56,143 bases of DNA from Alphaproteobacteria bacterium. GTDB lineage: Bacteria; Pseudomonadota; Alphaproteobacteria; UBA9219. Each line of letters opens with the position of its first letter. Within the stretch, counting starts at the first letter, position 1. A program made the position numbers and the translations under genes. The notes below the pieces were generated by a model. That model saw nothing but the letters and a program-made list of their open reading frames with translations. It searched no databases and was not told where the DNA came from. Positions 14,447-30,837 of this stretch are shown here, piece after piece. Where the stretch lies: assembly GCA_049697595.1 (NCBI GenBank), contig JBAVWC010000438.1, positions 1-56,143 of the forward strand. Direction: 5' to 3'.

Positions 14447-15397
14447 ATGTCCTACACACACAAAATCGTCCCGATAACATCTGAAGATCAATGGCTGTCA
14501 CTCCGCAAGTCGGATTTGACTAGCACAGAAATTTCTGCACTTTTTAATCTCTGCCCGTATTTGACTAAATTTGAACTCTATCATGCGAAAAAGGACGGCC
14601 TGATTTTGCCGTTCAAAGAAAACGAGCGCATGAAGGACGGCAAGGACATGGAGGTGTTCGCCGCCAATAAGGTCGCCAAGAAGAACGGATGGACTGTTCG
14701 ACCATTGCAGGTCTATGCGCGGATTCCTGAATTACGGTTGGGGGCAAGTTTTGACTTTGAGGCTATCTGTCCGAAGCGCGGTAAAGGCATATTGGAAATC
14801 AAAGCCGTTGATTATTTCCGGCACAAACAGAAATGGTCGGAAGAAGAAATCCCGCCACATATTGAAATTCAAGCGAGACATCAAATGCTCTGCGCTAAAG
14901 AATATAATTGGTCTTGCGTGGCGGCGTTTACGTCAATTTATGACCACCACGAATATCTGTTTGACCGTGATGAGGCGTTTGAGAATGGGTTAATCGCGGC
15001 ATCTAAGAGTTTCTGGTCTGACGTTGACAATGGACACGCGCCTGAGCCTGATTTTGTTAAGGATGCTGCGGTTATATCTGCCTTGTATAAAAACGCTGGT
15101 GGTGAGGCTGTTGACCTTAGCGCGGATAATCAGTTATCGGATTTACTGGCTGAATATCTGCGCGTTAAAGAAGAGGCTAAATCTTGGGGTGATAAACAGG
15201 ACGCTTTGAAATCCGAAATACACTTCAAGATGGGCGAACGCGCTAAGGGGTTCACGCCAGAATATGCCGTTGATACGGGCTGGACTAAAGGAAGTGAGGG
15301 GACTGTTGTAACGACAGAAATGGTTGGAACGGTTATCGGAGCGAAGTCGGGATACAGGAAGTTGTTAGTTAAACCATATAAGGGAGATAAGAAATGA
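14447..15397 (+). CDS. YqaJ-type (lambda Exo-like) recombination exonuclease
   Basis: 316-aa ORF. The N-terminal SEDQWLSLRKSDLTSTEISALFNLCPYLTKFELYHAKK matches the YqaJ signature. It is paired with RecT downstream. Confidence 0.82.
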   Translation: MSYTHKIVPITSEDQWLSLRKSDLTSTEISALFNLCPYLTKFELYHAKKDGLILPFKENERMKDGKDMEVFAANKVAKKNGWTVRPLQVYARIPELRLGASFDFEAICPKRGKGILEIKAVDYFRHKQKWSEEEIPPHIEIQARHQMLCAKEYNWSCVAAFTSIYDHHEYLFDRDEAFENGLIAASKSFWSDVDNGHAPEPDFVKDAAVISALYKNAGGEAVDLSADNQLSDLLAEYLRVKEEAKSWGDKQDALKSEIHFKMGERAKGFTPEYAVDTGWTKGSEGTVVTTEMVGTVIGAKSGYRKLLVKPYKGDKK

Positions 15398-15591
15398 GTG
15401 AGCCAAGATGTTATGGCATCGTTGCCGAGTGTACGTTAGAGGCACCCCTTATCTGGGAGCAGAGACCACTTACCCGCGAGGAGGCGCACTGCAAGCTAAG
15501 GGAGTTTGCCGGGCGACCAAACATTATCCGCGCCGCGATATTCCGCATGGATTTTGTGGATGGAAATGAAACCCTAGTAGAAAAGGATTAA
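15394..15591 (+). CDS. hypothetical protein (65 aa)
   Basis: ORF track. ATGA coupling. Confidence 0.5.
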   Translation: MSEPRCYGIVAECTLEAPLIWEQRPLTREEAHCKLREFAGRPNIIRAAIFRMDFVDGNETLVEKD

Positions 15592-15595
15592 TGAA

Positions 15596-16465
15596 ATGAC
15601 CGAACCAGCACCACAATCCAAGCAATTAACCCCAGTAGGCGAACTCTGCACAGGGTTAAATAAGATCGAGGGGATGCTTGAAAAGGCACTCCCGAAAGGC
15701 GTAACCAAGGATAAATTCATGCGTACTGCCTTGCAGGGAATACAAACTCACAAAGACAAAGACAAGTTAGCAAGTGCAGATCGTGCTAGTTTCTATCTTG
15801 CGGTTCAACGTGCGGCTAGTGACGGTCTATTGCTAGACGGTCGTGAAGCTGCTCTGGTGGTTTTTGCTAATCAAGTGCAATTTATGCCAATGGTGCAGGG
15901 CTTGATTAAGTTAGCCCGTAACTCCGGCGACATTAAGAACATCGAGGCCGCAGTTGTCCACCGCCATGACCGTTTTACCTATATTATGGGTGAGGACGCA
16001 TCACCAAAGCATGAGGCTGATTGGTTTGCAGATGATCGTGGAGAGCCAATCGGAGTATGGGCGGTTGTTACCCTATCGTCTGGCGAGAAAATACCGGCGA
16101 TGCTTTCCAAGTCAAAGGTTATGCGCGTGGCTGCGAAGTCAAAGAATGGCTATCAGTATGACCCAACCAAGGGCGATGCTTGGGAGGAATGGTGGAAGAA
16201 AACAGCCGTCAAGAACGTGCTGAAATACGCGCCACGCAGCACAGAGTTGGACAGGGCATTGCAGCAGGACGAGGAAGAGCCGATTGATGTTACGCCGACA
16301 CCACCAGCAGAAGTCGTTGCAGCTATTGAACCTCCACGTAAGAGGAAGGCTGTTGAACCTCCACGTAAGAGGAAGGCTGTTGATGTTGTTACCGAAACGG
16401 CTAATCCTACCCCAGAACCACCACCGCAGACCATTGATGGGAGTTTTGAGGAAGTGCCAATATAA
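15596..16465 (+). CDS. recT: RecT-family single-strand annealing protein
   Basis: 289-aa ORF. FMRTALQGIQ...SFYLAVQRAASDGLLLDGREAALVVF...MPMVQGLIKLARNSG is typical of RecT. It follows the YqaJ exonuclease. Confidence 0.85.
   Translation: MTEPAPQSKQLTPVGELCTGLNKIEGMLEKALPKGVTKDKFMRTALQGIQTHKDKDKLASADRASFYLAVQRAASDGLLLDGREAALVVFANQVQFMPMVQGLIKLARNSGDIKNIEAAVVHRHDRFTYIMGEDASPKHEADWFADDRGEPIGVWAVVTLSSGEKIPAMLSKSKVMRVAAKSKNGYQYDPTKGDAWEEWWKKTAVKNVLKYAPRSTELDRALQQDEEEPIDVTPTPPAEVVAAIEPPRKRKAVEPPRKRKAVDVVTETANPTPEPPPQTIDGSFEEVPI
16328..16381 (+). repeat. perfect 27-bp tandem duplication inside the recT 3' end
   Basis: GAACCTCCACGTAAGAGGAAGGCTGTT occurs twice back to back, encoding EPPRKRKAV twice. 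Confidence 0.9.
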
Positions 16466-17459: not shown

Positions 17460-17464
17460 TCAGA

Positions 17465-18605: not shown

Positions 18606-18631
18606 ACTATTTCCGAACAACCGAGGTTAAA

Positions 18632-19650: not shown

Positions 19651-19677
19651 TATGACAACTGAAACCACGGTAAAAAC

Positions 19678-20427: not shown

Positions 20428-20744
20428 GCAAAGATTCACTAACGACGAAATGCGACATCGACAAAATCCGCGAGGGGCTGCTTTCTTTTCAGGAAGGTTC
20501 GGCTGCACCGGAGTATGAACAAGGCTTGCTTGATGCTTTAGATCGGCTTGTTGGCGATTTGGAGAGGCGGTCAAATGACGCTCTTGAGGAAGCAGCTAAC
20601 CATTTCGAGAACATAATGCATGGCGTCAATATCCCTGCTGAAATTCGTTCGCTGAAAAGGAGCAAGCTATGTCTGGTCAAACAAATAACCACGAAACCAG
20701 AAGTGCAAGAAGAACCGCTAATAACTAGGAGGAACGATGAATGA
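20424..20744 (+). CDS. hypothetical protein (106 aa)
   Basis: ORF 20346..20744 trimmed to the ATG at 20424 (ATGA overlap with the MTase stop). Confidence 0.55.
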   Translation: MSKDSLTTKCDIDKIREGLLSFQEGSAAPEYEQGLLDALDRLVGDLERRSNDALEEAANHFENIMHGVNIPAEIRSLKRSKLCLVKQITTKPEVQEEPLITRRNDE

Positions 20745-21288: not shown

Positions 21289-21460
21289 TACTAAAACGAC
21301 GAAATTGAAAAGCTGTCCTCTCTGCGGATGCCAAGAGGTTTGTGTAGAAACAAGTTTAGATAATGAAGACTATGTTGTCTGCCAAAACGAACATTGTGGT
21401 TGTTCATCAAACTTGGCTGCATGGCAAGGTTTTAAGAAGAACAGAAAGGATTCAGTATGA
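21278..21460 (+). CDS. Lar-family (restriction alleviation-like) zinc-ribbon protein
   Basis: ORF 21257..21460 trimmed to the ATG at 21278. LKSCPLCG...YVVCQNEHCGCSS...AAWQ matches the Lar-family pattern. Confidence 0.6.
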   Translation: MPLNTKTTKLKSCPLCGCQEVCVETSLDNEDYVVCQNEHCGCSSNLAAWQGFKKNRKDSV

Positions 21461-21639
21461 CAGTAACCACACCCTCGCCGGAAGCTGAAGCGCTTGTCCG
21501 CGACATTCTCTATGCGTCTGGGTCAAGTCTCGATTTCTTCAGCATGGAGAAAACGCGCAGCAAAATGTTTTCTGCTGCACAGGCTCATATTGATTTGTCA
21601 TACAAGCGCGGTCATGCTGCTTGCGACTGCGGGAGATAA
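21457..21639 (+). CDS. hypothetical protein (60 aa)
   Basis: ORF track. ATGA coupling. Confidence 0.5.
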   Translation: MTVTTPSPEAEALVRDILYASGSSLDFFSMEKTRSKMFSAAQAHIDLSYKRGHAACDCGR

Positions 21640-21640
21640 A

Positions 21641-21841
21641 ATGAAAAGCGTATATTTGTGTTCACCAACAAATAGCCAAATGTTCACTTCATGCTGTGAT
21701 GTGGCAATATGTGACTATCAATCTTTTTGTCCTCGATGCAAAGAGGAGGTTTACCCTGGAGAAAATATGACAAATCATGGTCGCCGTGTGTCTCGGTGGA
21801 CAGTGGCGTTCGGAAAACAAAGAAGGAGCAGTATGAAATGA
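21641..21841 (+). CDS. Cys-rich small protein (66 aa)
   Basis: ORF 21494..21841 trimmed to the ATG at 21641, 2 nt after the upstream stop. It carries CCDVAIC...CPRC. Confidence 0.5.
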   Translation: MKSVYLCSPTNSQMFTSCCDVAICDYQSFCPRCKEEVYPGENMTNHGRRVSRWTVAFGKQRRSSMK

Positions 21842-22197
21842 CCGCCTTTAACTTCCGTCCAATCTTTGTCCCCAAAATACTGTCCGGAGAGAAGCTATCC
21901 ACAATCCGCAGCACAAAGCGTTGCGAGGTCGGCGACACGATGCAGCTTTATACCGGACAGCGCACGAAGGCTTGCAGGAAGCTGATGGATGTTACTTGTA
22001 TTGGGGTTGCGCCGATCATCTTATCCGCAGCCGTTATGTGGCGGCTGGGCGAGATAACCGGCAATGTTCATCCGATGTCAGCCCTGTTGCTTCACGCGCA
22101 GGAAGGGTTTGCGAATATGAAAGAGATGCTCGACTTCTTCCGCGAAGAATACGGTTTGCCGTATCGCGGATTTATTCATGCTTGGAAACCGAGATGA
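21838..22197 (+). CDS. ASCH-domain protein
   Basis: ORF 21727..22197 trimmed to the ATG at 21838. FVPKILSGEKLSTIRSTKRCEVGDTMQLY fits the ASCH N-terminal signature. Confidence 0.65.
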   Translation: MTAFNFRPIFVPKILSGEKLSTIRSTKRCEVGDTMQLYTGQRTKACRKLMDVTCIGVAPIILSAAVMWRLGEITGNVHPMSALLLHAQEGFANMKEMLDFFREEYGLPYRGFIHAWKPR

Positions 22198-22391
22198 GCC
22201 GACTTGATAAAAAACCCAATCGCAAAGAGCGACAGCCAGAGCGTACGTGCGCGAAAAAGAAAGTTTATGCAACACCTTGGGATGCAGTCAAGGCTGCGGC
22301 TGTCTATTCGATGAACGGATTCAAGTGGCAATCGCCTTATGAATGCTCCGTCTGTCGCGGCATACATCTAACGAGCAGAGGAGAAAAATGA
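22194..22391 (+). CDS. hypothetical basic protein (65 aa)
   Basis: ORF 21921..22391 trimmed to the ATG at 22194 (ATGA overlap). Confidence 0.5.
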   Translation: MSRLDKKPNRKERQPERTCAKKKVYATPWDAVKAAAVYSMNGFKWQSPYECSVCRGIHLTSRGEK

Positions 22392-22522
22392 TGGAGAACC
22401 AGAAAACTGAAACCACCCACCACAAAGACGGACTTCCCCTCCGCGATTGCATCATCGGCTCTCTCGTGATCGTCGGTAGCTGGATCGCTTTATTCCTTGT
22501 CGCGGTGTTGACATGCCAATGA
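22388..22522 (+). CDS. small membrane protein (44 aa)
   Basis: Hand translation: MMENQKTETTHHKDGLPLRDCIIGSLVIVGSWIALFLVAVLTCQ. Overlaps both neighbours. Confidence 0.4.
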   Translation: MMENQKTETTHHKDGLPLRDCIIGSLVIVGSWIALFLVAVLTCQ

Positions 22523-22758
22523 AACTAAACTGCATTGTCTCCAATAGCATCCCATCTGGCACTAAATTCGTGGCATTAACCTATGATGGCAGCCATGCAG
22601 GGGTTTACATGATTGACAAAGCCGGACACCTGATAAATTATGAAGGCGAGGACATTGAGAGTTCGCCGGATTGCTACCTGACTGGCAGCGGGTTCGGGTA
22701 TTGGATTGAGTTGCCAAAGAGTTTCAAAATGTGGTTTGAACAGAGGAAACCGAGATGA
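22513..22758 (+). CDS. hypothetical protein (81 aa)
   Basis: ORF track. Confidence 0.55.
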   Translation: MPMKLNCIVSNSIPSGTKFVALTYDGSHAGVYMIDKAGHLINYEGEDIESSPDCYLTGSGFGYWIELPKSFKMWFEQRKPR

Positions 22759-23042
22759 CAGAATGGCAACCGATAGAGACTGCGCCGAAAGATGGAACTG
22801 CTATCCATGCTCGGCGAGAAGAAGAAGGTTTTTGCAAGAAGCCAAACTTAATAAAATGGTGTGACGGAAAATGGGTAAGCACTCTTCGGCCAGAGATCGA
22901 AGTTACCAACCAACCGACACATTGGGAGCATGTCGATTATCTGCGAGAGTCCGTCTTTGGCTGGTTTGAAGATTATGGCTACAAGCTCCCCGACGAAAGA
23001 GTTTTTGACAACTTAATCGAGAGGATAAGAAATGCCGCTTAA
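22755..23042 (+). CDS. DUF551-domain protein
   Basis: ORF track. MTEWQPIETAPKDGT is the characteristic DUF551 start. Confidence 0.68.
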   Translation: MTEWQPIETAPKDGTAIHARREEEGFCKKPNLIKWCDGKWVSTLRPEIEVTNQPTHWEHVDYLRESVFGWFEDYGYKLPDERVFDNLIERIRNAA

Positions 23043-23253
23043 TTCAATGCCCATAACCACCCTATCCCCACCCCTCCACGACCCCCTTCCCAAGCTCGTA
23101 CAGGCGATTCACGACATGAACCTACGCGCATTAGACCGATGCCTTGAAATCGCGTCCACGCCCCATCTAACGCGCAAATTGAGGGCATCGACGTGTTCGG
23201 GGCTGGCAGAGAGGATATTAACGGGATTAGGGGATGTGAGGGCGGTGTTATGA
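23032..23253 (+). CDS. hypothetical protein (73 aa)
   Basis: ORF track. Confidence 0.45.
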   Translation: MPLNSMPITTLSPPLHDPLPKLVQAIHDMNLRALDRCLEIASTPHLTRKLRASTCSGLAERILTGLGDVRAVL

Positions 23254-23359
23254 TCCAGCGAATCCTGAGCCTATTGTTCCCCTACCACCGACCATCGCTC
23301 ATTGGTTCTATTCTTGTCCACCAAGGAAGCGTTACGATTAACCCAACGAGGAGATAAGA

Positions 23360-23533
23360 ATGACGGCTCGGCATAAAGGAAAATTCTGCAAGATTCCAGA
23401 TGGATATATCAAGCGGTCGGAATGCCCATCTATGAAAACCCACTATCACCACTACGATCCATCGCCGTTCCATTATCATTGGGCGTGGATGTTGGTGACG
23501 TTTGCCCTTGGTGTTGTCGCTGGGTTGGTTTAG
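23360..23533 (+). CDS. small C-terminally membrane-anchored protein (57 aa)
   Basis: Hand translation: MTARHKGKFCKIPDGYIKRSECPSMKTHYHHYDPSPFHYHWAWMLVTFALGVVAGLV. SD GAGGAG lies upstream. Confidence 0.45.
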   Translation: MTARHKGKFCKIPDGYIKRSECPSMKTHYHHYDPSPFHYHWAWMLVTFALGVVAGLV

Positions 23534-23548
23534 GGAGTGGTTACTGAT

Positions 23549-23758
23549 TCAGACATGCGCCCTGCTCCTGAAATGTTCATCGTTGATGATGGCATTATCT
23601 GGGTCAAGAATTTTGACCAATTCAAACACCAAAGGCTCCGTATAATTGCCGCCTAATTGCATATTGATGGCATCACCAAGTTTGATGATAACGGACGCTC
23701 TTGTTTTCTTCGGAAGTTCACCCATGCGGAAAACTTCTATAAGTGAGTTCATGCTCAT
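23549..23758 (-). CDS. hypothetical protein (69 aa)
   Basis: ORF track. Last gene of the minus-strand methyltransferase operon. Confidence 0.5.
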   Translation of the reverse strand: MSMNSLIEVFRMGELPKKTRASVIIKLGDAINMQLGGNYTEPLVFELVKILDPDNAIINDEHFRSRAHV

Positions 23759-23779
23759 GATTGGCTCGTGGTTTGTGGA

Positions 23780-23968
23780 TTATCGGTCATGCTCTAGCTC
23801 CCATATTTTTCCTGATAACTGCTCGATGCAATCAGCCGCACTTTCCAGCAAACGAGCTTCGCCACTTCCGCTATCCAGTTTAAGCAAATGCGCCGCAAGG
23901 TTATTTAGCCCCTTGACAATATCTGCGTCAATTTTGGCTATTTTCGTCGTTACTGGTTTGTCGGTCAT
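23780..23968 (-). CDS. hypothetical protein (62 aa)
   Basis: ORF 23780..24058 trimmed to the ATG at 23966-23968 (ATGA overlap with the upstream MTase stop). Confidence 0.5.
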   Translation of the reverse strand: MTDKPVTTKIAKIDADIVKGLNNLAAHLLKLDSGSGEARLLESAADCIEQLSGKIWELEHDR

Positions 23969-24585
23969 ACTGCCCTCGGTTTCATAAAAACATACCAGTG
24001 AGTGAATCCTTGCCGTCCAGTTAGATGTCCGAAAAGCGGTTTGATGTCTGTCAGGCATAAAACCTCTTTGACTTTAATTTGAGTTTCGTTCCATTTGAAA
24101 ACCAAAGTGCCGTCTGCATCGAGAACTCGGAAGCATTCAGATAAACCTTTCTTGATGTCCTCTCGCCAATCGGCAGATAGTTTGCCATATTTCTTCGCAA
24201 GCCAACTCTTGTCGCCAGCCGTCTTTAGATGCGGCGGGTCGAACACGACTAGTTTGAAATGCCCATCAGGAAAGGGTATGTCTGTGAAGTCCATTAGAAT
24301 GTCTGGATGAATTTTCAGGCTGCGTCCGTCGCATAGGATGTGTTCTTCATCGCGGATGTCTCCAAAAACAACATCAGGATTCTTTCGGTCATTCCAGAAC
24401 ATTCTGCTTCCGCTGCAAGGGTCGAGGACTCGCCGTTTCGGCATCTTAGATTCCACCCTTGGCGTAGCTTCGCTGTTCCGTGCAGGCGCACAGCTTGAGT
24501 TCTCGCCTTGTAAGCCTCCTCCGGTAGCCGCCGCCGGAGTGCGAGATACGGTGGAATTATTCGTCGTTACTGATTTCTCACTCAT
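23965..24585 (-). CDS. amino-methyltransferase (N6-adenine or N4-cytosine type, DPPH motif)
   Basis: 206-aa ORF with motif I-like VLDPCSGS followed by motif IV VVFDPPH. The start ATG overlaps the stop of the C5-MTase (ATGA). Confidence 0.72.
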   Translation of the reverse strand: MSEKSVTTNNSTVSRTPAAATGGGLQGENSSCAPARNSEATPRVESKMPKRRVLDPCSGSRMFWNDRKNPDVVFGDIRDEEHILCDGRSLKIHPDILMDFTDIPFPDGHFKLVVFDPPHLKTAGDKSWLAKKYGKLSADWREDIKKGLSECFRVLDADGTLVFKWNETQIKVKEVLCLTDIKPLFGHLTGRQGFTHWYVFMKPRAV

Positions 24586-25223
24586 ATTAAATCTCCTTCT
24601 GCTTTGAGGATCGCTTCCCCGATGATCTGCGCGATTTGAGGAACGATGCTGTTTCCGAGAGACTTAAGGCGGTGTACTCGCAGGGGTATCCCATTAGCCA
24701 CTCGACCCACGTCGGGTTCAACGCCCCACCAGCGTGCGATGCGAGTGTCTTCGAGTTCCTTGCTAATTCTGCCGGAGAGTGTCCGTTGTCCTTCCAGTCC
24801 CTCGCGCATGGCGTTGGGTACATGTGAACTTGGTTTCTCAGTCTGCATCCGCTCGTCTGGCCGTTCTCTGTATATTTTAGCCAGCTCTCTTTGCTGCCTA
24901 TCCTTGCTGCATCCTCGACCGTTGGGGTTTGCCACGATCCAGACCCTATCTCTTTTGTGGGGAGCACCTGCCGCGGAAGCGGGGATACAATGCCATTCCG
25001 CATCATACCCGATCTCAGCGAGTGACCCGAGAACTTCTTCCAATCCGCGAGAGCGAAGGGCTGAGACGTTTTCGATGATGACGTAGTGCGGCTGCGCTTC
25101 TTTGATGATGCGGAGGTACTCGAACCAGAGGCCGCTTCGCTCCCCGGCAAGCCCTGCGCCTTTTCCCGCGAGGCTGATGTCTTGGCAGGGGAAGCCTCCG
25201 GCAATAACGCTGCTTTCCATCAA
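24582..25223 (-). CDS. DNA (cytosine-5) methyltransferase, motifs IV-X (lacks motif I in this frame)
   Basis: 213-codon ORF with motif [35 protein letters not shown] and [19 protein letters not shown] stop lies 4 codons upstream of its first TTG/ATG. Confidence 0.8.
24587..25204 (-). other. nested +1-frame ORF carrying [16 protein letters not shown] and [13 protein letters not shown] elements
   Basis: 205-codon open frame inside the C5-MTase gene, in the same relative (+1) frame as in the plus-strand paralog. PTP block is at 24788-24820 and MGYP at 24683-24694. Confidence 0.45.
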
Positions 25224-25383
25224 GTGTTGTTACGTCATCGTGGCAGGGAATATCCGGCCAGTGTTTCTTTAGAACGGCTTGGCAGAACGGTTCACGTTCG
25301 CAGAAAGCGACCGTTGTCATTCCCGCCGCTTCGAGGCCGAGCGAGAAGCCGCCTATGCCGGAGAATAGGTCAAGGACGCGCAT
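25015..25383 (-). CDS. C5-MTase N-terminal fragment (motif I), out of frame with the rest
   Basis: The ATG at 25381-25383 is preceded by SD-like [60 protein letters not shown] is MTase-like. After about 25225 the frame reads Arg/Pro-rich filler until the stop at 25015. Confidence 0.6.
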
Positions 25384-25957
25384 TTCTACGTTCCTTTCGC
25401 TTCTGTGCGGCTTGATAGTTGTACTGCGCGATAGGCCGCTTGCCGAGATGCGCCTTTGCGGTATTGAGAGAAATACCAGCCTCATTGAGCAAATCTTCTG
25501 TGCGCCACTCTTTCGACGGCAAAGGCCACCTGTCAGCAATCTTGTCTGCGGCTTCTTTCGTGAAGGCTTTTTTCTTATCGGCGGATATGCGGCCTCCAAT
25601 CTTTGCCGCGCCGGATGCCCTTGCCTCTTTCCAATGCTGCGTAATCAACTTGGCCGAGCATGTCGGAGGGTACACACCGCTTTCCAAAGACAGGATGCTT
25701 ATCTTTTTGCGGCGAATGTCAGGCAATAAGTCGCCCCACTCAGGATATGTTCTAGCAAGGACACCAAGACTGACGACCGCTAGCGTAATTTGTTCATTGC
25801 GACGTGTCGGGCGCAGGATTGCCGCCAAACCAGATTCGCCTTCGTACATCGGGATGGTGCTCCAATAGTCACCAAAATGTGTTGCGAAGGCATCGGCCTG
25901 ATACTGCGCCGTTCTCCAAGTTTTGTCTGAAATATAGGCTTTATGTGTCATTTTCAT
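25370..25957 (-). CDS. resolvase-like / HTH protein (possibly a degenerate serine recombinase)
   Basis: 195-aa [17 protein letters not shown]...[14 protein letters not shown] and the C-terminal GGR...[19 protein letters not shown] follow the order of resolvase catalytic-domain and HTH blocks, but several catalytic positions look substituted. First gene of the MTase operon. Confidence 0.45.
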
Positions 25958-25982
25958 ATTTTATGGTTGACGCACTCAGATT

Positions 25983-26029
25983 GTGCTTGACGAAGTGTAT
26001 ATCACGGGTTTATAAACAGTGTCAAGCAC
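25983..26029. promoter_or_regulatory. palindromic switch: interdigitated divergent promoters
   Basis: The inverted repeat GTGCTTGAC (25983-25991) / GTCAAGCAC (26021-26029) supplies a TTGAC -35 on each strand. Plus strand: TTGACG, 17 nt, TTATAA (26010-26015). Minus strand: TTGACA (26020-26025), 18 nt, TATACA (25996-26001). Confidence 0.5.
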
Positions 26030-26074
26030 GATGAGAAATAAAACTGAACCCTAACCCCAGAAACGGAGAATAAA

Positions 26075-26224
26075 ATGAATGACGAAAGAATGGCCGAACT
26101 GCGTGAGATGGCGAAACAGAGTCACCCATGTAGTCCTGATGAAACTTTGCGCCTAATCGCGGAGATTGAAATTCTTAAATTGAAGGTATGGCAACATGAA
26201 AATGGCCTACCTAAAGCTGTTTAA
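26075..26224 (+). CDS. hypothetical protein (49 aa)
   Basis: Hand translation: MNDERMAELREMAKQSHPCSPDETLRLIAEIEILKLKVWQHENGLPKAV. SD GGAG lies upstream. A junction-motif copy starts 28 nt before the ATG. Confidence 0.45.
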   Translation: MNDERMAELREMAKQSHPCSPDETLRLIAEIEILKLKVWQHENGLPKAV

Positions 26225-26348
26225 CCAACTAACCCCAACCTTGGACGGTACGAATATGTCGAATAAGTACAGCATTACGGAGAAACATGGGCGTGCCGCC
26301 ACGGGCGAACACCGGACATGCCGTAAAGCCTCCAGCGTCCAAGACTTT

Positions 26349-26425
26349 CTGAATGTAGCTCAGCTTGGTAGAGCATCGCGTTTGGGACGCGAGGGTCGTA
26401 GGTTCAAATCCTGCCATTCAGACCA
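26349..26425 (+). tRNA. tRNA-Pro (anticodon UGG), CCA encoded
   Basis: Hand-folded cloverleaf. Acceptor stem CTGAATG/CATTCAG, D arm GCTC-AGCTTGGTA-GAGC, anticodon arm TCGCG-TTTGGGA-CGCGA, variable loop GGGTC, T arm GTAGG-TTCAAAT-CCTGC, discriminator A, then CCA. G37 is as in Pro tRNAs. Confidence 0.9.
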
Positions 26426-26458
26426 ATTTAACCCCTAACCCCAGAATTGGACAAAAAA

Positions 26459-26827
26459 ATGAGTTTACCTTTCCTATATTTGATATTTTGTGTACTACCA
26501 TCGGCTGCTGGATGGGTTGGAACTTTTACAATTTTGGGGATCGTTACCCTCATCATTTTGGGAATCGCAATCGCCGTCATGAAATCGGTTGAATACGATG
26601 ATGACGATAAGAGGAAATCAGCCGCAGTTCTTTCCTACATGAAGAAACTTTCTGGTTTTGTCGTACTGTTAGCAATCCTTGATGTGTTTTTACCAGATCA
26701 AAGCCAGATTTACACGATTACTGGTGCCTACGCTGTGACCAACAACGCAGAGATAGCTAAACTGCCCGACAACATTCTCAAGGCTGCAAATGGTTATCTT
26801 GAGAAACTAAGCGCCAAGCAACCCTAA
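26459..26827 (+). CDS. membrane protein (122 aa)
   Basis: ORF 26447..26827 trimmed to the ATG at 26459. It has several hydrophobic segments and ends in KQP followed by a stop inside a junction motif. Confidence 0.6.
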   Translation: MSLPFLYLIFCVLPSAAGWVGTFTILGIVTLIILGIAIAVMKSVEYDDDDKRKSAAVLSYMKKLSGFVVLLAILDVFLPDQSQIYTITGAYAVTNNAEIAKLPDNILKAANGYLEKLSAKQP

Positions 26828-26848
26828 CCCCAAAATGTGAGAACGATC

Positions 26849-27091
26849 ATGTCTTTAGGAACTTGCTTCGCTTGCGATAAAAGACTTGGTGGCAACCCAT
26901 ATATGGTTGATACCCGTGACGGCCAGACGGTGTTTGTTGGCGCGGAGTGTTACAAGACAATCAAGAGTTCTGGCGAAGCTGGCTATCTGCCTCCGAAAGG
27001 TGGGCCAAGGCTCTGGACAATCCCGAAAGGTCTTAGCCAACAGGAATTAAACGATCTACACAAAGTTTCTGTGCGCAGTATGTGTGCGTAA
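26849..27091 (+). CDS. hypothetical Cys-containing protein (80 aa)
   Basis: ORF 26837..27091 trimmed to the ATG at 26849. Confidence 0.55.
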   Translation: MSLGTCFACDKRLGGNPYMVDTRDGQTVFVGAECYKTIKSSGEAGYLPPKGGPRLWTIPKGLSQQELNDLHKVSVRSMCA

Positions 27092-27114
27092 CTATGGTTA
27101 GGTGGAGAGATGAT

Positions 27115-27267
27115 ATGTCGGAACTGGAGCAAGCAGAATACAACAAACAAGTCTGGTGGACTCGTGCGGTAAATGCCACTGAGCAAAAAGATCGCATGGA
27201 TGCCATTCAGGCTGTTAATGAGCTGAATGACTATATAGTTTCTATTAAAAACCTAAAGCAACCTTAA
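27115..27267 (+). CDS. hypothetical protein (50 aa)
   Basis: ORF 27082..27267. The ATG at 27115 is preferred because of the GGAGAG SD 6 nt upstream. It ends in KQP followed by a stop inside a junction motif. Confidence 0.5.
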   Translation: MSELEQAEYNKQVWWTRAVNATEQKDRMDAIQAVNELNDYIVSIKNLKQP

Positions 27268-27287
27268 CCCAAAAAAACGGATCCAGC

Positions 27288-27506
27288 ATGTTTAAGATAC
27301 CGGAAAATTTCCTCGAAGGAATTAACGACGATGGAATCATCTCGGGCACAGGCTCTATGATAGAAACTCATTACGGGGAACTTGAAAGCCTTAAGCTTCG
27401 GAACGGCTATCTTGCCGTTATTATCGACTGGCAAGACATAGAGATTGAGACGCGCATCCCTCTAGAAATGCTTGACAAGATACTTGCAAAACACAAGCAA
27501 CCCTAA
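27288..27506 (+). CDS. hypothetical protein (72 aa)
   Basis: ORF track. It ends in KQP followed by a stop inside a junction motif. Confidence 0.55.
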   Translation: MFKIPENFLEGINDDGIISGTGSMIETHYGELESLKLRNGYLAVIIDWQDIEIETRIPLEMLDKILAKHKQP

Positions 27507-27515
27507 CCCCGAAAT

Positions 27516-27731
27516 ATGCGCAACCAACTCGACCTTTTACCGAAACCGACTAAGCCACGAAAGAAGCGGGAATGGTTGATGCACGTTTACGATGCTGGAG
27601 ATGGAAGCGATGGATTTGAAATGGCCTGTTGTTTTGAATGTACACACTGTGGGCATAAAGAAGAATGGGTGAATATGAGAACGGTCACGGAAGCCAAGCG
27701 CGGCATACCATGTCCGAAGTGCAACCATTAA
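27516..27731 (+). CDS. zinc-ribbon protein (71 aa)
   Basis: ORF track. It carries CCFECTHCG...CPKC cysteine pairs. Confidence 0.55.
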   Translation: MRNQLDLLPKPTKPRKKREWLMHVYDAGDGSDGFEMACCFECTHCGHKEEWVNMRTVTEAKRGIPCPKCNH

Positions 27732-27872
27732 CCCCAAAACAAGCATTGGCTTAACTGTTATAAGCTTCCTATTAAGTGTTATAAGGTTCCGGAAGTTTTA
27801 ACACTAGAATTGGATGCTGTGAATATGCCGAATAAGCAGTCTGCCGACAGGCATTTGTTACATCCAAGGCAG

Positions 27873-28103
27873 TTACCGGCGCATCCCCAACAACTTGCCA
27901 TATTCGAGTATCCTAGCTATCGCAGCCTTCGGGCAACCGTAGTGAGATCGACCCGGCTGCATCCACATACTTCGCGCCATTGATATGCTGCTTTCGTTCA
28001 GCCCCATGAGCTTGGCGATTTTCGTCTGCGTATAATCGCGCCGCAAATCCTCTATTATGCGCTTGGCTTTTTGGCGGTCGGAAAAAGTTATTTCCATCTG
28101 CAT
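27873..28103 (-). CDS. HTH-type small regulator (76 aa)
   Basis: ORF track. YTQTKIAKLMGLNESSISMARS has an HTH pattern. It is the last gene of the late minus-strand operon. Confidence 0.55.
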   Translation of the reverse strand: MQMEITFSDRQKAKRIIEDLRRDYTQTKIAKLMGLNESSISMARSMWMQPGRSHYGCPKAAIARILEYGKLLGMRR

Positions 28104-28152
28104 CCCATTCTATACCGCCGCATAGCCTCGCACAGGCATTTCTCGGCGTGGG

Positions 28153-28608
28153 TCATGCAAGAGTGCCACCCGCCGCCGTATAAGCCTCCGTGAGTGCGGC
28201 AATCGTGTTTGTGTGTTGTCCATATGTCGCCCCAGGCAATGAAGCCCATATATGCGCCACCTTGGACATGGCAGTTATGAAATTGCCGTTGATAACGTCG
28301 TCGGCTGCGCCGCTCTCGAATATCTGGCGTAAGGCAATCGTGTCTTGGCTGTCCGGCGAGAAGTCAGGCAGGTCTAGCATGAGTTTGTAGGCGTCGTAAT
28401 AACGCCCTAGAAGCTGGTAGCGACCCGCTGCCGTAGAATCCAACGCTGTGTTCAAGATGCGCGGATGATCGGCGTATGAGGTAAAGAGGAGGGGGTGAGT
28501 GGGGGTCGATCCGACGAGAACCATATATCCGTTGTCGCTATTGGGAATGAGGCTCGTGCCTTCGCTCCAAGCGATACTGTCAAGGAAGGCTTTCTGGTTC
28601 GGGTTCAC
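28153..28608 (-). CDS. endolysin, lambda R-type lytic transglycosylase (GH104)
   Basis: 151-aa ORF. KAFLDSIAWSEGT...HP...STAAGRYQLL...DFSPDSQD...IWASLPGATYGQ...AAGGT is collinear with lambda R. Confidence 0.9.
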   Translation of the reverse strand: MNPNQKAFLDSIAWSEGTSLIPNSDNGYMVLVGSTPTHPLLFTSYADHPRILNTALDSTAAGRYQLLGRYYDAYKLMLDLPDFSPDSQDTIALRQIFESGAADDVINGNFITAMSKVAHIWASLPGATYGQHTNTIAALTEAYTAAGGTLA

Positions 28609-28898
28609 TGAAACTTCCTCTTCATTCCGCTTTCGAGAATGTCGTCAATCCTGCGTATCAAGTCGCCTTGGTCGGTTAGCTTCTGGTTGACCGTGGCGAG
28701 GCTGGAATTAATGCGTTCGCGGTCATCATCCTGTTTTTCTTTCCACACCTTAAGAGACAAAACCTCAGTTTCGGTGGCCTGAACCTGGGAGTCTAACTTG
28801 CTGGCATACCAGATAGACGAACCGGCATTGATAAGAATGGCGACAATCACACCTATGGTGATTTTTTTATCGAGGTGCCAATCTGTCTTTTCTTGCAT
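28605..28898 (-). CDS. membrane-anchored coiled-coil lysis-cassette protein (holin/spanin-like)
   Basis: 97-aa ORF with one transmembrane segment (ITIGVIVAILINAGSSIWYA) followed by a coiled coil. It overlaps the endolysin start. Confidence 0.5.
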   Translation of the reverse strand: MQEKTDWHLDKKITIGVIVAILINAGSSIWYASKLDSQVQATETEVLSLKVWKEKQDDDRERINSSLATVNQKLTDQGDLIRRIDDILESGMKRKFQ

Positions 28899-28899
28899 C

Positions 28900-29139
28900 T
28901 CAGTCTCCCACTGGGTTTCCGTTGTTCGTCAGATTGGTCTGCACTGGAATTTGATTAACGGCATCCGGGAAATCATCGGGCTGGCTGTAGGTTTTGACGC
29001 TCTCGACGGCCTTTAGAACATGCGTTCCAGCTTTGATGCCGTCAGCCTCGACTCCGCTAATAATTCCTGTTTTTTGCAAAATAGAAATTACTAGCGGAAT
29101 CCCGTATTTAACCAGAAGTGGAACAAGCCACACTGGCAT
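28900..29139 (-). CDS. putative holin-like small membrane protein (79 aa)
   Basis: ORF track. It has an N-terminal hydrophobic segment (MPVWLVPLLVKYGIPLVISIL) and lies two genes upstream of the endolysin. Confidence 0.45.
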   Translation of the reverse strand: MPVWLVPLLVKYGIPLVISILQKTGIISGVEADGIKAGTHVLKAVESVKTYSQPDDFPDAVNQIPVQTNLTNNGNPVGD

Positions 29140-29142
29140 TTG

Positions 29143-29472
29143 TTACACCGCAGCCAAAGCAGCAGCGCCAGCAGCCGAGAGGTCAGGAGCAGCAGCGGGT
29201 TCAGCCGCGACCGCATTGGCAACCGTTCCAGCCGCCGCCGTAGCCAATCCAGCACTCACGCCGCTCGTCAGGGCGGTTGTAAGGCTCGTCAGGACGGTTT
29301 TGGCTTCAGCCGGTGCGAACGCCTTCAGAAACGCGCTAACGGCGTCTCCAAGGTCATCCTCTACCGTCTTAACAGCAGGCGATGCGCCAGAGGTCAGCGT
29401 AGATAATGCGGCTTGCAGATTGCCGGCGAAGGCTTCGTCAGCAGCTTTTACGAGAAAGAAAGTCATTTCCAT
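29143..29472 (-). CDS. Ala-rich hypothetical protein
   Basis: ORF 29143..29484. An internal ATG (29472 or 29466) after SD AAGGA is preferred. Confidence 0.5.
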   Translation of the reverse strand: MEMTFFLVKAADEAFAGNLQAALSTLTSGASPAVKTVEDDLGDAVSAFLKAFAPAEAKTVLTSLTTALTSGVSAGLATAAAGTVANAVAAEPAAAPDLSAAGAAALAAV

Positions 29473-29633
29473 TTTCCTTTGCAAAGGGTTGTAGTTATCT
29501 CAAGTGTATCATCGTATTCAGTATTTTGAAAGAGTGATTGTATTTCTTCCAAATGTCTTGAAATTCTTTCATCCGATTCACACTTATTCAATAACTCATG
29601 TTCGATGCAGCGTACTCGGCTTAGGATCGACAT
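29463..29633 (-). CDS. possible small protein (56 aa) in an AT-rich pocket
   Basis: Internal ATG of ORF 29463..29780 (MSILSRVRCIEHELLNKCESDERISRHLEEIQSLFQNTEYDDTLEITTTLCKGKWK). Local AT-rich composition differs from the flanks. Confidence 0.3.
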   Translation of the reverse strand: MSILSRVRCIEHELLNKCESDERISRHLEEIQSLFQNTEYDDTLEITTTLCKGKWK

Positions 29634-29685
29634 TTTTAGAAGGATGTGATCGTTATTCAATTTGAACCCCGCCCGTAAACGCCGG

Positions 29686-30837
29686 TTATGGAAACCCGTT
29701 AAATGTGAAAGCGTCCGGACGGCTCGGAAACACGGTCGCTGCGCCCCCGGTATTCTGAAAGTTAAGAACCTCATAAGCATCGGTAATAGACCCGGCTGTG
29801 TTGAGATTAGCCGTCACTGTCGTCGCATTTGTCAGAGTTTCGGACGGCATGATCGTGGCATGCGTGGTATTAGTCGCTGTTGAGGATCGGAATCCATTCC
29901 AATTGAGCATGCTGGACGTCGTGGCAGAACTCGTAATCGTTGCCGTATTGTTTGTGGCTGCCGACAATGCAATCGTGCCGCGCTGCGCCGACTGTTGAAG
30001 CACGCCTGAAACAAATTCGACCACGACGAAATTGTCTTGCTGCGTGTTACCGTCTGCGCTGTCGCCAATCGTGATTGTTACAGTTGTGGGCGCTGTAAGC
30101 TGTATCGTTGGCTGTTCTTCGACGGTCGTGTCGCCGTTTGGTGATCCGCCGCCTTCGAAGATGCACATAGCATTGGCTAGAGTAACAGATGTAATCGCTT
30201 GCGTCGATGTGCTACCAGAACTGTCTGTCCATGTATGAACAAATTGTTGTGTACTTGAATTAAGAGCTGCTGGATTCCAGTTGACGACCTGATAGCCACC
30301 GATTGTGGTGCCAGAACCGCCATTAATAAGAGTACCCGTAACGGTCGTGGTATTCGTAAGAGTGACGACATACGTGTTTAAATCGAAATGCTGTGAGGTA
30401 AGCGTCTGACTCATGCCCTCATAGAAAACGCTGGAATTTGCTGTCGTGACCGCTGAAATCATTGACGTGACGCCGGTACCGGTTGTCATTGAGATGGTGC
30501 CGGTTTGAACTGAACTAACGAGATTGCTCGTCGCGTCAACCACATCGAATGTGCAGTTTACCGTTGTCGTGCTGCTGACGCCGCGCGTGGCTGTAATAGT
30601 CGTTCCAGACAACGCTATGCGTGCATAAGCCTGTCCGTTTGACGCCGCCGCGCTCGTGGTGCAGCCTTGAAATACCAAAAATGGCGTGCCTACCGTTGCC
30701 GTAATAGAGGCCGTCCCCGTCAAAGAACCTGATGCAATTGTGACGCTGCCATGCTGAACGCTGTTAACGTACTGCGTAGCATGGGCAGGAAGTACCCGGC
30801 ACAATATGAGTAAAACTATAAGAGCAAAAGTTTTCAT
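29686..30837 (-). CDS. signal-peptide protein built of four tandem Thr/Ser-rich beta modules
   Basis: ORF 29686..30855 trimmed to the ATG at 30835-30837. MKTFALIVLLILCRVLPAHA resembles a signal peptide. Four modules of about 90 aa each start with (V/L)Q.G(S/T)I and end with V(V/L)(D/N)(F/W). Confidence 0.7.
   Translation of the reverse strand: MKTFALIVLLILCRVLPAHATQYVNSVQHGSVTIASGSLTGTASITATVGTPFLVFQGCTTSAAASNGQAYARIALSGTTITATRGVSSTTTVNCTFDVVDATSNLVSSVQTGTISMTTGTGVTSMISAVTTANSSVFYEGMSQTLTSQHFDLNTYVVTLTNTTTVTGTLINGGSGTTIGGYQVVNWNPAALNSSTQQFVHTWTDSSGSTSTQAITSVTLANAMCIFEGGGSPNGDTTVEEQPTIQLTAPTTVTITIGDSADGNTQQDNFVVVEFVSGVLQQSAQRGTIALSAATNNTATITSSATTSSMLNWNGFRSSTATNTTHATIMPSETLTNATTVTANLNTAGSITDAYEVLNFQNTGGAATVFPSRPDAFTFNGFP

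What the first reader, a model, noticed from the sequence alone, without database searches (positions are those of the whole stretch)
26047..27738. Conserved gene-junction motif AACCCTAACCCCA at fixed distance from start codons
Six copies lie in 1.7 kb, at 26047, 26430, 26820, 27260, 27499 and 27723. A related copy at 16518 precedes the FtsZ-tail-like gene.
- Four copies begin 28-29 nt before the next ATG.
- Three of the preceding genes end in the same K-Q-P-stop, because their last codons (AAG CAA CCC TAA) are part of the motif.
- One copy immediately follows the tRNA.
- The last copy closes the array with no gene after it.

So unrelated small genes are bracketed like cassettes by a shared element of about 20 nt. 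Possible roles are a phage-specific promoter or processing site (the fixed spacing favours an initiation signal), a translational operator, or a recombination boundary for cassette shuffling. The motif is C-rich, is not a hairpin, and does not resemble the sigma70 elements seen elsewhere in this window.
Basis: seen in the sequence. Interest (0 to 1): 0.6.

Follow-up and report, generated by a model that had tools for sequence, protein, structure and literature searches.

The report
Junction motif of phage gene cassettes
A short C-rich sequence (core TAACCCC) marks nearly every boundary in a fast-changing block of small accessory genes and tRNAs in a group of uncultured phages; it most likely serves both as a stop-and-restart leader on the messenger RNA and as the seam where genes are swapped, which is a new example of a known kind of phage element.

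Summary
The window is a complete-looking 56-kb podophage contig, probably with an alphaproteobacterial host. A small operon (26075-27731, + strand) holds seven copies of a 17-nt, G-free motif, aAMCMC-TAACCCC-ARAA.

A matrix built only from other phages ranks the window's copies first to sixth. The same motif, in the same orientation, punctuates equivalent arrays in at least 16 other loci from related uncultured phages, around almost entirely different genes.

Position and likely role:
- It lies downstream of a sigma70-type promoter, in the leader of the first gene and between later genes.
- It usually supplies the upstream stop codon (22 of 29 junctions).
- It sits 3-8 nt before the next Shine-Dalgarno sequence.

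Three cassettes recur at different array positions in different phages, and similarity begins and ends at the motif.

Best reading: a portable RNA-level stop/restart leader that doubles as a recombination seam. A promoter, an RNase site, or a site for the neighbouring resolvase-fold protein are less likely but not excluded.

The closest known elements are Cluster K start-associated sequences and T4 PeSLs. The scan has noted similar junction modules in other phages.

The parts
25370..25957 (-). 195-aa protein with a small serine-recombinase (resolvase/invertase) fold plus C-terminal HTH. It is transcribed divergently from the array and is probably the regulator of the divergent promoters. Its link to the motif is not shown.
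   Evidence: AF2 pLDDT 94. The top 38 Foldseek PDB hits are all serine recombinases, probability 0.93-1.00. Pfam Resolvase reaches only E=0.03. 96 homologs were found, all metagenomic.
25987..26016 (+). Sigma70-type promoter of the array: TTGACG, 18-nt spacer, TATAAA. It lies inside the inverted repeat GTGCTTGAC...GTCAAGCAC.
   Evidence: Read from the sequence. The equivalent TTGACA-17-TAnnnT with palindromic TTGACA-N2-3-TGTCAA is seen in relatives. The strict consensus scan does not call it because the last base of the -10 is A.
26046..26062 (+). Motif copy 1 (GAACCCTAACCCCAGAA), in the 5' leader of the first gene.
   Evidence: 22.2 bits. The same position is occupied in the leaders of L042, L044, L045, L046, L043, L013, L047, L048, L049, L051, L052, L054 and L055.
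26075..26224 (+). Cassette ORF 1 (49 aa, no family match).
26224..26240 (+). The TAA of its upstream unit is the stop codon of ORF 1.
   Evidence: (17.3 bits).
26349..26425 (+). tRNA-Pro(UGG) cassette with encoded CCA.
   Evidence: ARAGORN. Rfam tRNA 67 bits.
26430..26446 (+). Motif copy 3 (AACCCCTAACCCCAGAA), 4 nt after the tRNA. It is a tandem of two TAACCCC units.
   Evidence: 24.6 bits.
26459..26827 (+). Cassette ORF of 122 aa, a predicted membrane protein (phrog_3878). It ends K-Q-P-stop inside the motif.
   Evidence: It is the only segment with nucleotide similarity to phage L001, and the match runs motif to motif (26430-26831).
26819..26835 (+). Motif copy 4 (CAACCCTAACCCCAAAA). Its TAA is the stop codon of the 122-aa ORF.
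   Evidence: (23.0 bits).
26849..27267 (+). Two-gene cassette (80 aa, 26849-27091; 50 aa, 27115-27267) with an ordinary GGTGGAGAG junction and no motif between the genes. The second ORF ends K-Q-P-stop.
27259..27275 (+). Motif copy 5, degenerate (CAACCTTAACCCAAAAA).
   Evidence: 15.1 bits.
27288..27506 (+). Cassette ORF of 72 aa. It ends K-Q-P-stop.
27498..27514 (+). Motif copy 6 (CAACCCTAACCCCGAAA). The next ATG is only 12 nt from the T and has no SD.
   Evidence: (20.8 bits).
27516..27731 (+). Cassette ORF of 71 aa, zinc-ribbon-like (CxxC...CxxC).
   Evidence: (weak Zn_ribbon_8 match).
27723..27739 (+). Motif copy 7 (AACCATTAACCCCAAAA). Its TAA stops the last ORF and no gene follows.
   Evidence: 24.2 bits. 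A terminator-like hairpin follows at 27839-27852.
14447..16465 (+). RecE-like exonuclease and RecT-like annealing protein. This is the phage's own short-homology recombination system and the inferred agent of cassette exchange.
   Evidence: phrog_434 at 2.4e-42 and phrog_148 at 2e-54.

Best explanation
The motif is the conserved core of a portable junction module, [T/C]AAC-N2-3-TAACCCC-ARAA, followed 3-8 nt later by a Shine-Dalgarno sequence and then the ATG. The module punctuates a hypervariable array of accessory genes, tRNAs and short non-coding stretches in a clade of uncultured phages that probably infect Alphaproteobacteria.

**How it is transcribed.** The array is read as one polycistronic RNA from an ordinary sigma70-type promoter upstream. 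The motif is therefore part of the mRNA: the leader of the first gene and the spacer between later ones.

**Proposed role on the RNA.** It acts as a stop-and-restart element.
- Its TAA triplets close the upstream reading frame.
- Its G-free, unstructured C/A-rich tract keeps the next ribosome-binding site open.
- It places the next start either behind an SD (ATG about 23 nt from the T) or, where there is no SD, within reinitiation distance of the stop (11-19 nt).

**Role as a seam.** It is the only sequence shared by otherwise unrelated cassettes and is always in the same orientation. It is therefore also the seam at which cassettes are gained, lost and reordered by short-homology recombination, for which the phage carries a RecE/RecT-like pair.

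**Shown:** existence, orientation, position relative to promoter, stop codon, SD and ATG, conservation across diverged phages, and reuse of the same cassettes at different array positions with similarity ending at the motif.

**Inferred:** the translational role and the recombination mechanism.
For: 1. **Real and specific.** A PWM trained only on other phages ranks the window's copies 1-6. There are 44 curated instances in 17 loci, all co-oriented with the array.
2. **Inside the transcript, not a promoter.** The first copy lies about 8-35 nt downstream of the expected start of a TTGACA-17/18-TAnnnA/T promoter in the loci I traced by eye (window, L042, L045, L046, L048, L049, L051, L040).
3. 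**Tied to the stop.** The upstream ORF ends in one of the motif's TAA triplets in 22 of 29 junctions. The window's K-Q-P tail is the motif read through: AAG CAA CCC TAA here, against AAG TAA CCT in the L001 ortholog.
4. **Tied to the start.** By my hand count over about 27 junctions, the gap from motif to SD is 3-8 nt in 19. A G peak at +14 is seen in 25 of 44 instances. First genes mostly have a strong SD, while many internal junctions have none and then an ATG at 11-19 nt.
5. **Single-stranded.** G is almost absent from -6 to +10. Predicted unpaired probability is 0.59-0.85 against a median of 0.48.
6. **Seam.**
   - The 122-aa gene is the only nucleotide-similar segment between the window and L001, and the match runs motif to motif.
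   - A 62-aa gene is cassette 1 in L048 and cassette 4 in L049.
   - A two-gene block is cassette 4 in L001 and cassette 1 in L052.
   - In the L048/L049 pair, similarity starts and ends at the motif, and the 3' motif is 17/17 identical while the gene is only about 60% identical (my rough reading of the alignment).
   - The number of TAACCC units varies from 1 to 3, as expected from misaligned exchange.
7. **No common phage-encoded factor.** The window, G001 and G007 share only tail-spike and small fragments, and G007 lacks the resolvase-like gene. The reader of the motif is therefore likely to be host machinery, or homology alone.
8. **Recombination system.** A RecE/RecT-like pair is present.
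Against:
- Some copies are not followed by a gene. The last copy in the window has none. One copy precedes a tRNA by 24 nt (L042). Two precede stretches of about 130 nt with no convincing ORF (L001, L042). A pure translation signal does not explain these copies, although a seam or processing site does.
- The strict invariance of AACCCC over phages whose neighbouring proteins are only 35-55% identical suggests sequence-specific recognition by something, which a merely unstructured leader does not require.
- The motif is not enriched in the putative host MAG (24 hits against about 27 expected by my estimate), so no host use of it is visible.
- In a few junctions a GC-rich hairpin precedes the motif (L040, L002). 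That layout would also suit a terminator-promoter or processing arrangement.
Confidence: 0.45

Rival explanations
1. It is an RNA processing site. A host (or unrecognised phage) endoribonuclease cuts the polycistronic transcript at each copy. This would release individual mRNAs, tRNAs and small RNAs, as host RNase III does at the intercistronic sites of the T7 early transcript.
For: Copies sit in the leader, between all units, directly after tRNAs (window, L013, L049), before a tRNA (L042), around non-coding stretches of about 130 nt (L001, L042) and after the last gene, giving an n+1 pattern. The motif is predicted to be single-stranded. GC-rich hairpins that could protect a new 3' end precede some copies.
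Against: From general knowledge, no known bacterial endoribonuclease recognises a C-rich, U-poor single-stranded motif: RNase E prefers AU-rich sites and RNase III needs duplex RNA. No nuclease gene is common to the motif-bearing phages. There is no enrichment in the candidate host genome. No RNA-end data are available.
Confidence: 0.15
2. It is a promoter. Each cassette would have its own promoter, read by host RNA polymerase with an alternative sigma factor or a phage-modified form, giving very short leaders that begin at about the SD.
For: It is strand-specific and upstream of genes, one tRNA and possible small RNAs. There is a roughly constant distance to the ATG, a G at +14, and the tract after CCCC often reads CAGAAT or CAAAAT. 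Hairpins precede some copies in a terminator-then-promoter layout. The core superficially resembles the T3 promoter core TAACCCTCAC, as I recall it from memory.
Against: The first copy always lies inside the leader of a good sigma70 promoter. No T7-like RNA polymerase was detected, though that search's controls did not ring either. No factor is shared by the window, G001 and G007. There is no host regulon with the motif. The last copy has no gene. No conserved -35-like partner is present, and the upstream AAC unit has variable spacing. The motif doubles as the upstream stop codon in most junctions.
Confidence: 0.12
3. It is a DNA site for a protein. One version makes it a recombination site used by the adjacent resolvase-fold protein, giving an integron-like capture system with a serine-recombinase relative. 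The other makes it a stoperator-like roadblock site for that HTH protein.
For: The layout mirrors an integron: a recombinase-fold gene divergent from a promoter, then a one-orientation cassette array with a site before the first cassette and after each one. In 13 of 15 loci carrying the protein family, the divergent leader has the motif. Ser10 and several Arg/Gln residues are nearly invariant in the family. Cluster A stoperators are likewise 13-bp asymmetric sites oriented with transcription and read by a monomeric repressor (PMC9283540).
Against: - The motif has no dyad symmetry and no hairpin.
- By my reading of the family alignment, the canonical catalytic Arg8, Asp67, Arg68 and Arg71 positions are not conserved.
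- A complete motif-bearing phage (G007) lacks the protein and has an XRE-type HTH gene in its place by my reading of the translation.
- In L042, L043 and L044 the protein also heads a co-directional small-gene array that has no motif.
- A better candidate operator, the palindrome TTGACA-N2-3-TGTCAA, sits at the promoters.
Confidence: 0.1
4. It has no expression function. The motif would be a recombination scar or microhomology that persists only because cassettes spread by copying their boundaries (gene conversion and hitch-hiking).
For: Similarity between shared cassettes starts and ends at the motif. The tandem unit number varies. An identical leader, CTAACCCCAGAATTGGACAAA, precedes different ORFs in the window/L001 and in L049. 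The motif is restricted to the one hypervariable operon.
Against: The core is invariant across phages whose flanking proteins are 35-55% identical, and across different virion backbones. There is consistent 3-8 nt spacing to the SD and use as the stop codon. Direct repeats without function would be lost through deletion in a phage that encodes RecET.
Confidence: 0.15

Closest known systems
Start-associated sequences (SAS) of Cluster K mycobacteriophages (Pope et al. 2011, PMC3203893)
   Same: Both are short asymmetric repeats (13 bp there) with 11-19 copies per genome, in one orientation and only in the non-structural part of the genome. Both lie just upstream of start codons of genes from different families, sometimes contain the upstream stop codon, and are absent from the host genome. 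Function is unknown in both, with a role in translation initiation suspected.
   Different: SAS is GGGATAGGAGCCC, contains the SD itself and lies 3-7 bp from the start. The motif here is C-rich and G-free, lies upstream of the SD (about 23 nt from the ATG), also flanks tRNAs, and occurs in unrelated podophages of Gram-negative hosts.
PeSL (promoter-early stem-loop) cassettes of T4-type phages (Arbiol et al. 2010, PMC2839356)
   Same: Both are repeated regulatory modules between small non-essential ORFs in hyperplastic regions, and recombination between copies shuffles, deletes and inserts ORFs.
   Different: A PeSL is a strong sigma70 promoter plus a terminator stem-loop. The motif here has neither, and it sits inside one transcription unit.
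Conserved boundary ('linker') sequences at gene and module junctions of lambdoid phages (Susskind-Botstein modular theory; HK97/HK620 comparisons; from my own knowledge)
   Same: Both are short conserved sequences at gene boundaries that act as crossover points between otherwise unrelated modules.
   Different: Those sequences are few and heterogeneous. They are not one reiterated oriented motif at every junction of an array.
Stoperators of Cluster A mycobacteriophages (PMC9283540, PMC6550527)
   Same: Both are 13-bp asymmetric sites in short intergenic regions, or overlapping stop/start codons, and are oriented with transcription.
   Different: Stoperators are spread over the whole genome and are bound by the immunity repressor. 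The motif here occurs in one operon only, no repressor is identified, and one motif-bearing phage lacks the neighbouring HTH protein family.
RNase III processing sites of the T7 early transcript (from my own knowledge)
   Same: Both place signals in the leader, between every early gene and after the last one within a single polycistronic RNA.
   Different: T7 sites are hairpins of about 60 nt cut by RNase III. The motif here is an unstructured 17-mer.

Membership tests
PeSL (T4-type) | Contains a strong sigma70-like early promoter | tested here: not met
   The motif has no -35/-10 hexamers. The consensus scan finds no promoter in 25300-28300, and the only good promoter is upstream of the first copy.
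PeSL (T4-type) | Contains a stem-loop that terminates transcription | tested here: not met
   The motif is predicted to be unpaired. A GC-rich hairpin precedes only a few copies in relatives.
PeSL (T4-type) | Lies between small non-essential ORFs of a hyperplastic region and mediates their shuffling | tested here: met
   Arrays differ almost completely between relatives. Three cassettes are found at different array positions, with similarity bounded by the motif.
Start-associated sequence (Cluster K) | Asymmetric repeat of about 13 bp, in one orientation, in the non-structural region, upstream of starts of unrelated genes | tested here: met
   44 instances, all co-oriented with the array. In the window they are confined to one accessory operon.
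Start-associated sequence (Cluster K) | Occupies the RBS position (contains AGGAG) 3-7 bp from the start codon | tested here: not met
   The motif is G-free and ends 3-8 nt upstream of the SD. The T-to-ATG distance has its mode at 23 nt.
Start-associated sequence (Cluster K) | Essentially absent from the host genome | tested here: inconclusive
   There is no enrichment in the MAG that holds the contig (24 hits against about 27 expected). Whether that MAG is the host is uncertain: GC is 48% against 53.5%.
Integron (attC cassette array) | attC: imperfect inverted repeats that fold as a hairpin, 57-141 nt | tested here: not met
   The conserved part is 17 nt with no dyad, and it is unpaired in folds.
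Integron (attC cassette array) | Adjacent tyrosine-recombinase integrase IntI | tested here: not met
   The neighbour has a serine-recombinase fold, not a tyrosine-recombinase fold, and it is absent from G007.
Integron (attC cassette array) | Promoter followed by a one-orientation array of promoterless cassettes, with a site before the first and after each | tested here: met
Stoperator (Cluster A) | Sites distributed across the genome in both arms, bound by the immunity repressor | tested here: not met
   Copies are confined to one operon. Binding cannot be tested with these tools.
Serine-recombinase crossover site (res site I / hix / gix) | Two inverted half-sites of about 12 bp around a central dinucleotide | tested here: not met
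   There is no inverted partner in the 65-nt alignment of 44 instances.
T7/T3-type single-subunit RNAP promoter | A phage-encoded single-subunit RNA polymerase is present | tested here: inconclusive
   PF00940 finds nothing in the whole assembly, window included, but it also rang in none of the 14 control genomes. By my reading of the ORF list and family scans, the ORFs of 700 aa or more are a primase-helicase, tail proteins and an internal virion protein.

The most novel reading that the evidence does not exclude
The oriented motif and the neighbouring, unannotated resolvase-fold protein family together form a phage-borne cassette-capture system. It would be analogous to an integron but run by a divergent serine-recombinase relative acting on a short asymmetric site. 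A less radical version is that the motif is a new sequence-specific signal read by alphaproteobacterial translation or RNA-processing machinery.
Probability: 0.08. Interest if true: 0.85.

Novelty: new variant of a known kind. Interest (0 to 1): 0.5.

Why it matters
Blocks of small early or accessory genes are where phages keep anti-defence and host-takeover functions. Related arrays here carry RtcB, tRNAs and an Acb2/Tad1-like sponge. How such blocks turn over so quickly is poorly understood.

A reiterated, oriented junction element that both formats expression and provides the crossover point would explain that turnover. It would also give a practical handle: scanning metagenomes for the motif delimits cassettes and finds new accessory genes. 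It adds an example from uncultured phages, probably of Alphaproteobacteria, to a design so far described for T4-type phages (PeSL) and Cluster K mycobacteriophages (SAS), suggesting convergent solutions.

The resolvase-fold family next to the array has no Pfam assignment and is worth study in its own right.

Tried and rejected
- **Near relatives among cultured phages.** There is no DNA match for 25000-29000 and no tblastn match for the 195-aa protein. The capsid is at most 38% identical to capsids of podophages of Proteobacteria.
- **Rfam.** Only tRNAs were found in the window and in five related loci. The 130-nt motif-flanked non-coding stretches match nothing.
- **Motif text search in papers.** It returned only primer noise.
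- **Epsilon-type pairing with 16S rRNA** (the T7 gene 10 enhancer has the same T-to-ATG distance). The MAG's partial 16S has no GGGGTTA, and the alphaproteobacterial V3 region is short. Dropped.
- **Antisense sRNA.** The three GGGGTTA sites on the + strand of the window appear to lie inside coding sequence by my reading of the ORF coordinates. Dropped.
- **Other promoter and regulator boxes,** compared from memory with the 44 instances: sigma32 -10 (CCCCATNT), ECF, SigF, CtrA (TTAA-N7-TTAAC) and the alphaproteobacterial LexA box. Only one instance fits CtrA spacing (L052). Dropped.
- **Host-wide signal.** There is no enrichment of the 10-mer in the MAG, and only a slight excess of TAACCCC upstream of ORFs (22.8% against 12-20% for control heptamers).
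- **Recent cassette gain or loss.** The two other public contigs of this phage are 100% identical to the window. The close capsid relative G003 shares no DNA in this region.
- **Pattern scan of viral contigs with a 17-mer.** It gave 27 hits, about the number I estimated by chance. Only four were real arrays: G001, G003, G007 and L037.
- **Profile scans for the resolvase-like family.** They found nothing in viral contigs and only 2 and 10 loci in genome and metagenome contigs.
Full report
**What the window is.** The window is a whole contig (C438, 56,143 bp, 48% GC) of a 510-contig MAG with 53.5% GC. It is a phage genome.
- Late genes on the minus strand include the terminase large subunit, major head protein, tail proteins and an internal virion protein.
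- Early genes on the plus strand include a primase-helicase, a helicase and a RecE-like/RecT-like pair.
- The capsid is at most 38% identical to those of epsilon15-, Ab31- and BPP-1-type podophages of Proteobacteria.
- The MAG's 16S rRNA looked alphaproteobacterial to me by eye. The phage carries a GapR-type DNA-binding gene. One homologous locus lies in a MAG labelled Alphaproteobacteria. An alphaproteobacterial host is therefore likely but not proven.

**The observation.** The seven core copies of TAACCCC (one is TAACCCA) lie at 26052, 26230, 26436, 26825, 27265, 27504 and 27729, all on the + strand.
- The 13-mer with up to 2 mismatches gives 6 hits against 0.77 expected.
- The stated spacings (28-29 nt to the ATG for four copies, 17 nt for a fifth) are correct. 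So are the three K-Q-P-stop endings, the copy 4 nt after tRNA-Pro(UGG), and the terminal copy without a gene.
- One junction inside the array (27091/27115) has an ordinary GGTGGAGAG ribosome-binding site and no motif, so that pair of genes behaves as one cassette.

**The motif in other phages.** A membrane-protein cassette led to a 58.7-kb IMG/VR phage (G001: L001, L002), which has the motif at seven junctions around different genes. Further motif-bearing loci came from four sources.
- The capsid gene led to G003 (L013): 92% capsid identity, entirely different cassettes, two tRNAs in the array.
- A pattern scan found G007 (L040) and L037.
- Homologs of the neighbouring 195-aa protein gave L042-L046.
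- Profile scans gave L047-L055.

From 44 curated instances in 17 loci the logo is aAMCMC-TAACCCC-ARAA. G is almost absent from -6 to +10, and a G peak at +14 marks the Shine-Dalgarno sequence. The upstream AAC(C) unit sits 2-3 nt from the core, and some junctions carry one to three tandem TAACCC units.

A PWM trained only on the 37 non-window instances ranks the window's copies 1-6 on both strands. Five score 20.8-24.6 bits against a best shuffle score of 18.5.

**Where the motif sits.** In the window, the array is preceded by TTGACG, an 18-nt spacer and TATAAA (25987-26016), and the first copy starts about 25 nt after the expected transcription start.
- The same holds in relatives. A TTGACA-17-TAnnnT promoter, usually embedded in a TTGACA-N2-3-TGTCAA palindrome, is followed 8-35 nt after the expected start by (T)AACCCC(A/G), then the SD and ATG. 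These distances are my own reading of the sequences. Thirteen of the 15 loci that carry the 195-aa family have the motif in that leader.
- The motif is therefore inside the mRNA.
- At internal junctions the upstream ORF ends in one of the motif's TAA triplets in 22 of 29 cases. The core TAA is used in 13, and a TAA 6-7 nt upstream in 9.
- The K-Q-P tail is the motif read through. The window has AAG CAA CCC TAA where the L001 ortholog has AAG TAA CCT.
- By my hand count of about 27 junctions, the gap to the SD is 3-8 nt in 19.
- First genes mostly have a strong SD. Many internal genes have none, and then an ATG 11-19 nt from the T. That distance is compatible with reinitiation after termination at the motif.
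- Local folding predicts the motif to be unpaired, at 0.59-0.85 against a median of 0.48.

**Cassette exchange.** Arrays are almost completely different between phages. Three cassettes recur.
- The 122-aa gene (window and L001) is the only nucleotide-similar segment between those phages, and the match runs from motif to motif, 26430-26831.
- A 62-aa gene is cassette 1 in L048 and cassette 4 in L049.
- A two-gene block (the VSKLDD protein plus a Gly/Tyr/Ser-repeat protein) is cassette 4 in L001 and cassette 1 in L052.

In the L048/L049 alignment, similarity begins at the 5' motif and ends at the 3' motif. The 3' motif is 17/17 identical while the gene is only about 60% identical by my rough reading. 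The identical leader CTAACCCCAGAATTGGACAAA precedes different ORFs in the window/L001 and in L049. A tandem duplication in G001 starts at the motif. The phage's RecE/RecT-like pair is a plausible agent, but that is an inference.

**What reads the motif.**
- No T7-type RNA polymerase was detected, although the control genomes did not ring either.
- The window, G001 and G007 share no protein apart from tail-spike and small fragments, at blastp E<1e-5 on ORFs of at least 40 aa.
- G007 is a complete genome with terminal repeats. It has a motif array but different virion genes, and an HTH gene that I read as XRE-type in place of the 195-aa protein.
- A dedicated phage factor is therefore unlikely.
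- The motif is not enriched in the MAG, with 24 hits against about 27 expected by my estimate.
- The remaining candidates are general host machinery (ribosome, RNase, polymerase) or homology alone.

**The neighbouring protein.** The 195-aa product of 25370-25957 has no Pfam family above threshold (Resolvase E=0.03). Its model is confident (pLDDT 94), and the top 38 PDB matches are all serine recombinases over catalytic domain, helix E and HTH.
- Ser10, Arg15, Gln20, Arg49, Arg53 and Ser63 are nearly invariant.
- By my reading of the alignment, the canonical Arg8/Asp67/Arg68/Arg71 positions are not conserved.
- Its position mirrors tnpR next to res, so I read it as the likely regulator of the divergent promoters through the palindrome. 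An integron-like role at the motif is possible but disfavoured, for three reasons: the site has no symmetry, G007 lacks the protein, and the protein also heads motif-free arrays in L042, L043 and L044.

**Comparison with known elements.** The nearest described elements are the following.
- Start-associated sequences of Cluster K mycobacteriophages are 13-bp, oriented, upstream of starts of unrelated genes and absent from the host. Their function is unknown (PMC3203893).
- PeSL cassettes of T4-type phages are repeated regulatory modules whose recombination shuffles small ORFs (PMC2839356).
- The motif differs from both. It holds no SD, no promoter and no stem-loop, it is C-rich and G-free, and it doubles as the stop codon.
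- Earlier notes of this scan describe comparable junction modules in other phages. One in a Bacteroidales phage has a stop motif and a TTAACCAA leader. I did not test those notes.

**Verdict.** The cassette-boundary reading is supported, and the promoter reading is not favoured. The molecular reader of the motif remains open. This is a new variant of a known kind of phage element and is of moderate interest.

Noticed in passing
window 25370-25957 (-): The 195-aa protein belongs to a family of about 100 metagenomic phage proteins with a confident serine-recombinase fold plus HTH, but no Pfam assignment and non-canonical active-site residues. Some relatives replace the N-terminal domain with T5orf172/MUG113.
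   Followed up: partly
L001 7851-7977; L042 320-440 (minus strand): Stretches of about 130 nt lie between two motif copies, with no convincing ORF and no Rfam match. In L042 the stretch follows RtcB. They may be small-RNA cassettes.
   Followed up: partly
window 26256-26438 (+): A 60-codon ORF starts 26 nt after motif copy 2, runs straight through the tRNA-Pro gene on the same strand, and stops at the TAA of motif copy 3. It is probably not a real gene, but the 119 nt between the motif and the tRNA are unexplained.
   Followed up: no
L042 1-2100 (minus strand); L044 211-438; L013 4982-5172: Related arrays carry RtcB RNA ligase next to tRNA-Pro(UGG), an Acb2/Tad1-like hairpin protein, and tRNA-Ser plus a second tRNA. 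This suggests the array is an anti-defence or tRNA-repair locus.
   Followed up: partly
window 25967-26029 and the equivalent regions of L001, L043, L045, L048, L049, L013: A palindrome TTGACA-N2-3-TGTCAA overlaps the -35 boxes of the divergent promoters and is conserved across the clade. It is a likely operator.
   Followed up: partly
window 8445-8480, 19190-19225, 20664-20700, 21457-21490 (+): Several small early ORFs begin with similar codons (M-x-K-x-I-T-T..., and ITTPSQE against VTTPSPEA), all containing ATAACCAC. This may be a second, in-frame repeat at gene starts, or the ORFs may be paralogs.
   Followed up: no
L001 8789-9110 and 9500-10400; L052; L040 5640-5950 (rc numbering): Cassette genes are built from long, near-perfect tandem repeats: Gly-Tyr-Gly-Ser, 'SSG(N/Y/D)xSTAA' and 'DAATRAAT'. 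One of these genes is duplicated in tandem in G001.
   Followed up: no
window 17370-29770: Contigs 100% identical to this part of the phage occur in two other public runs (SRR28002677, ERR11592902), so the phage is widespread and stable.
   Followed up: yes
whole contig against the MAG: The phage contig is the largest contig of the MAG and has 48% GC against 53.5%. Binning it with this alphaproteobacterial MAG may or may not reflect the true host.
   Followed up: partly
L040 6600-7030 (rc numbering), G007: A free-standing HNH plus AP2-domain homing-endonuclease-like gene sits as one cassette in the G007 array. It is followed by a GC-rich hairpin and a double motif.
   Followed up: no
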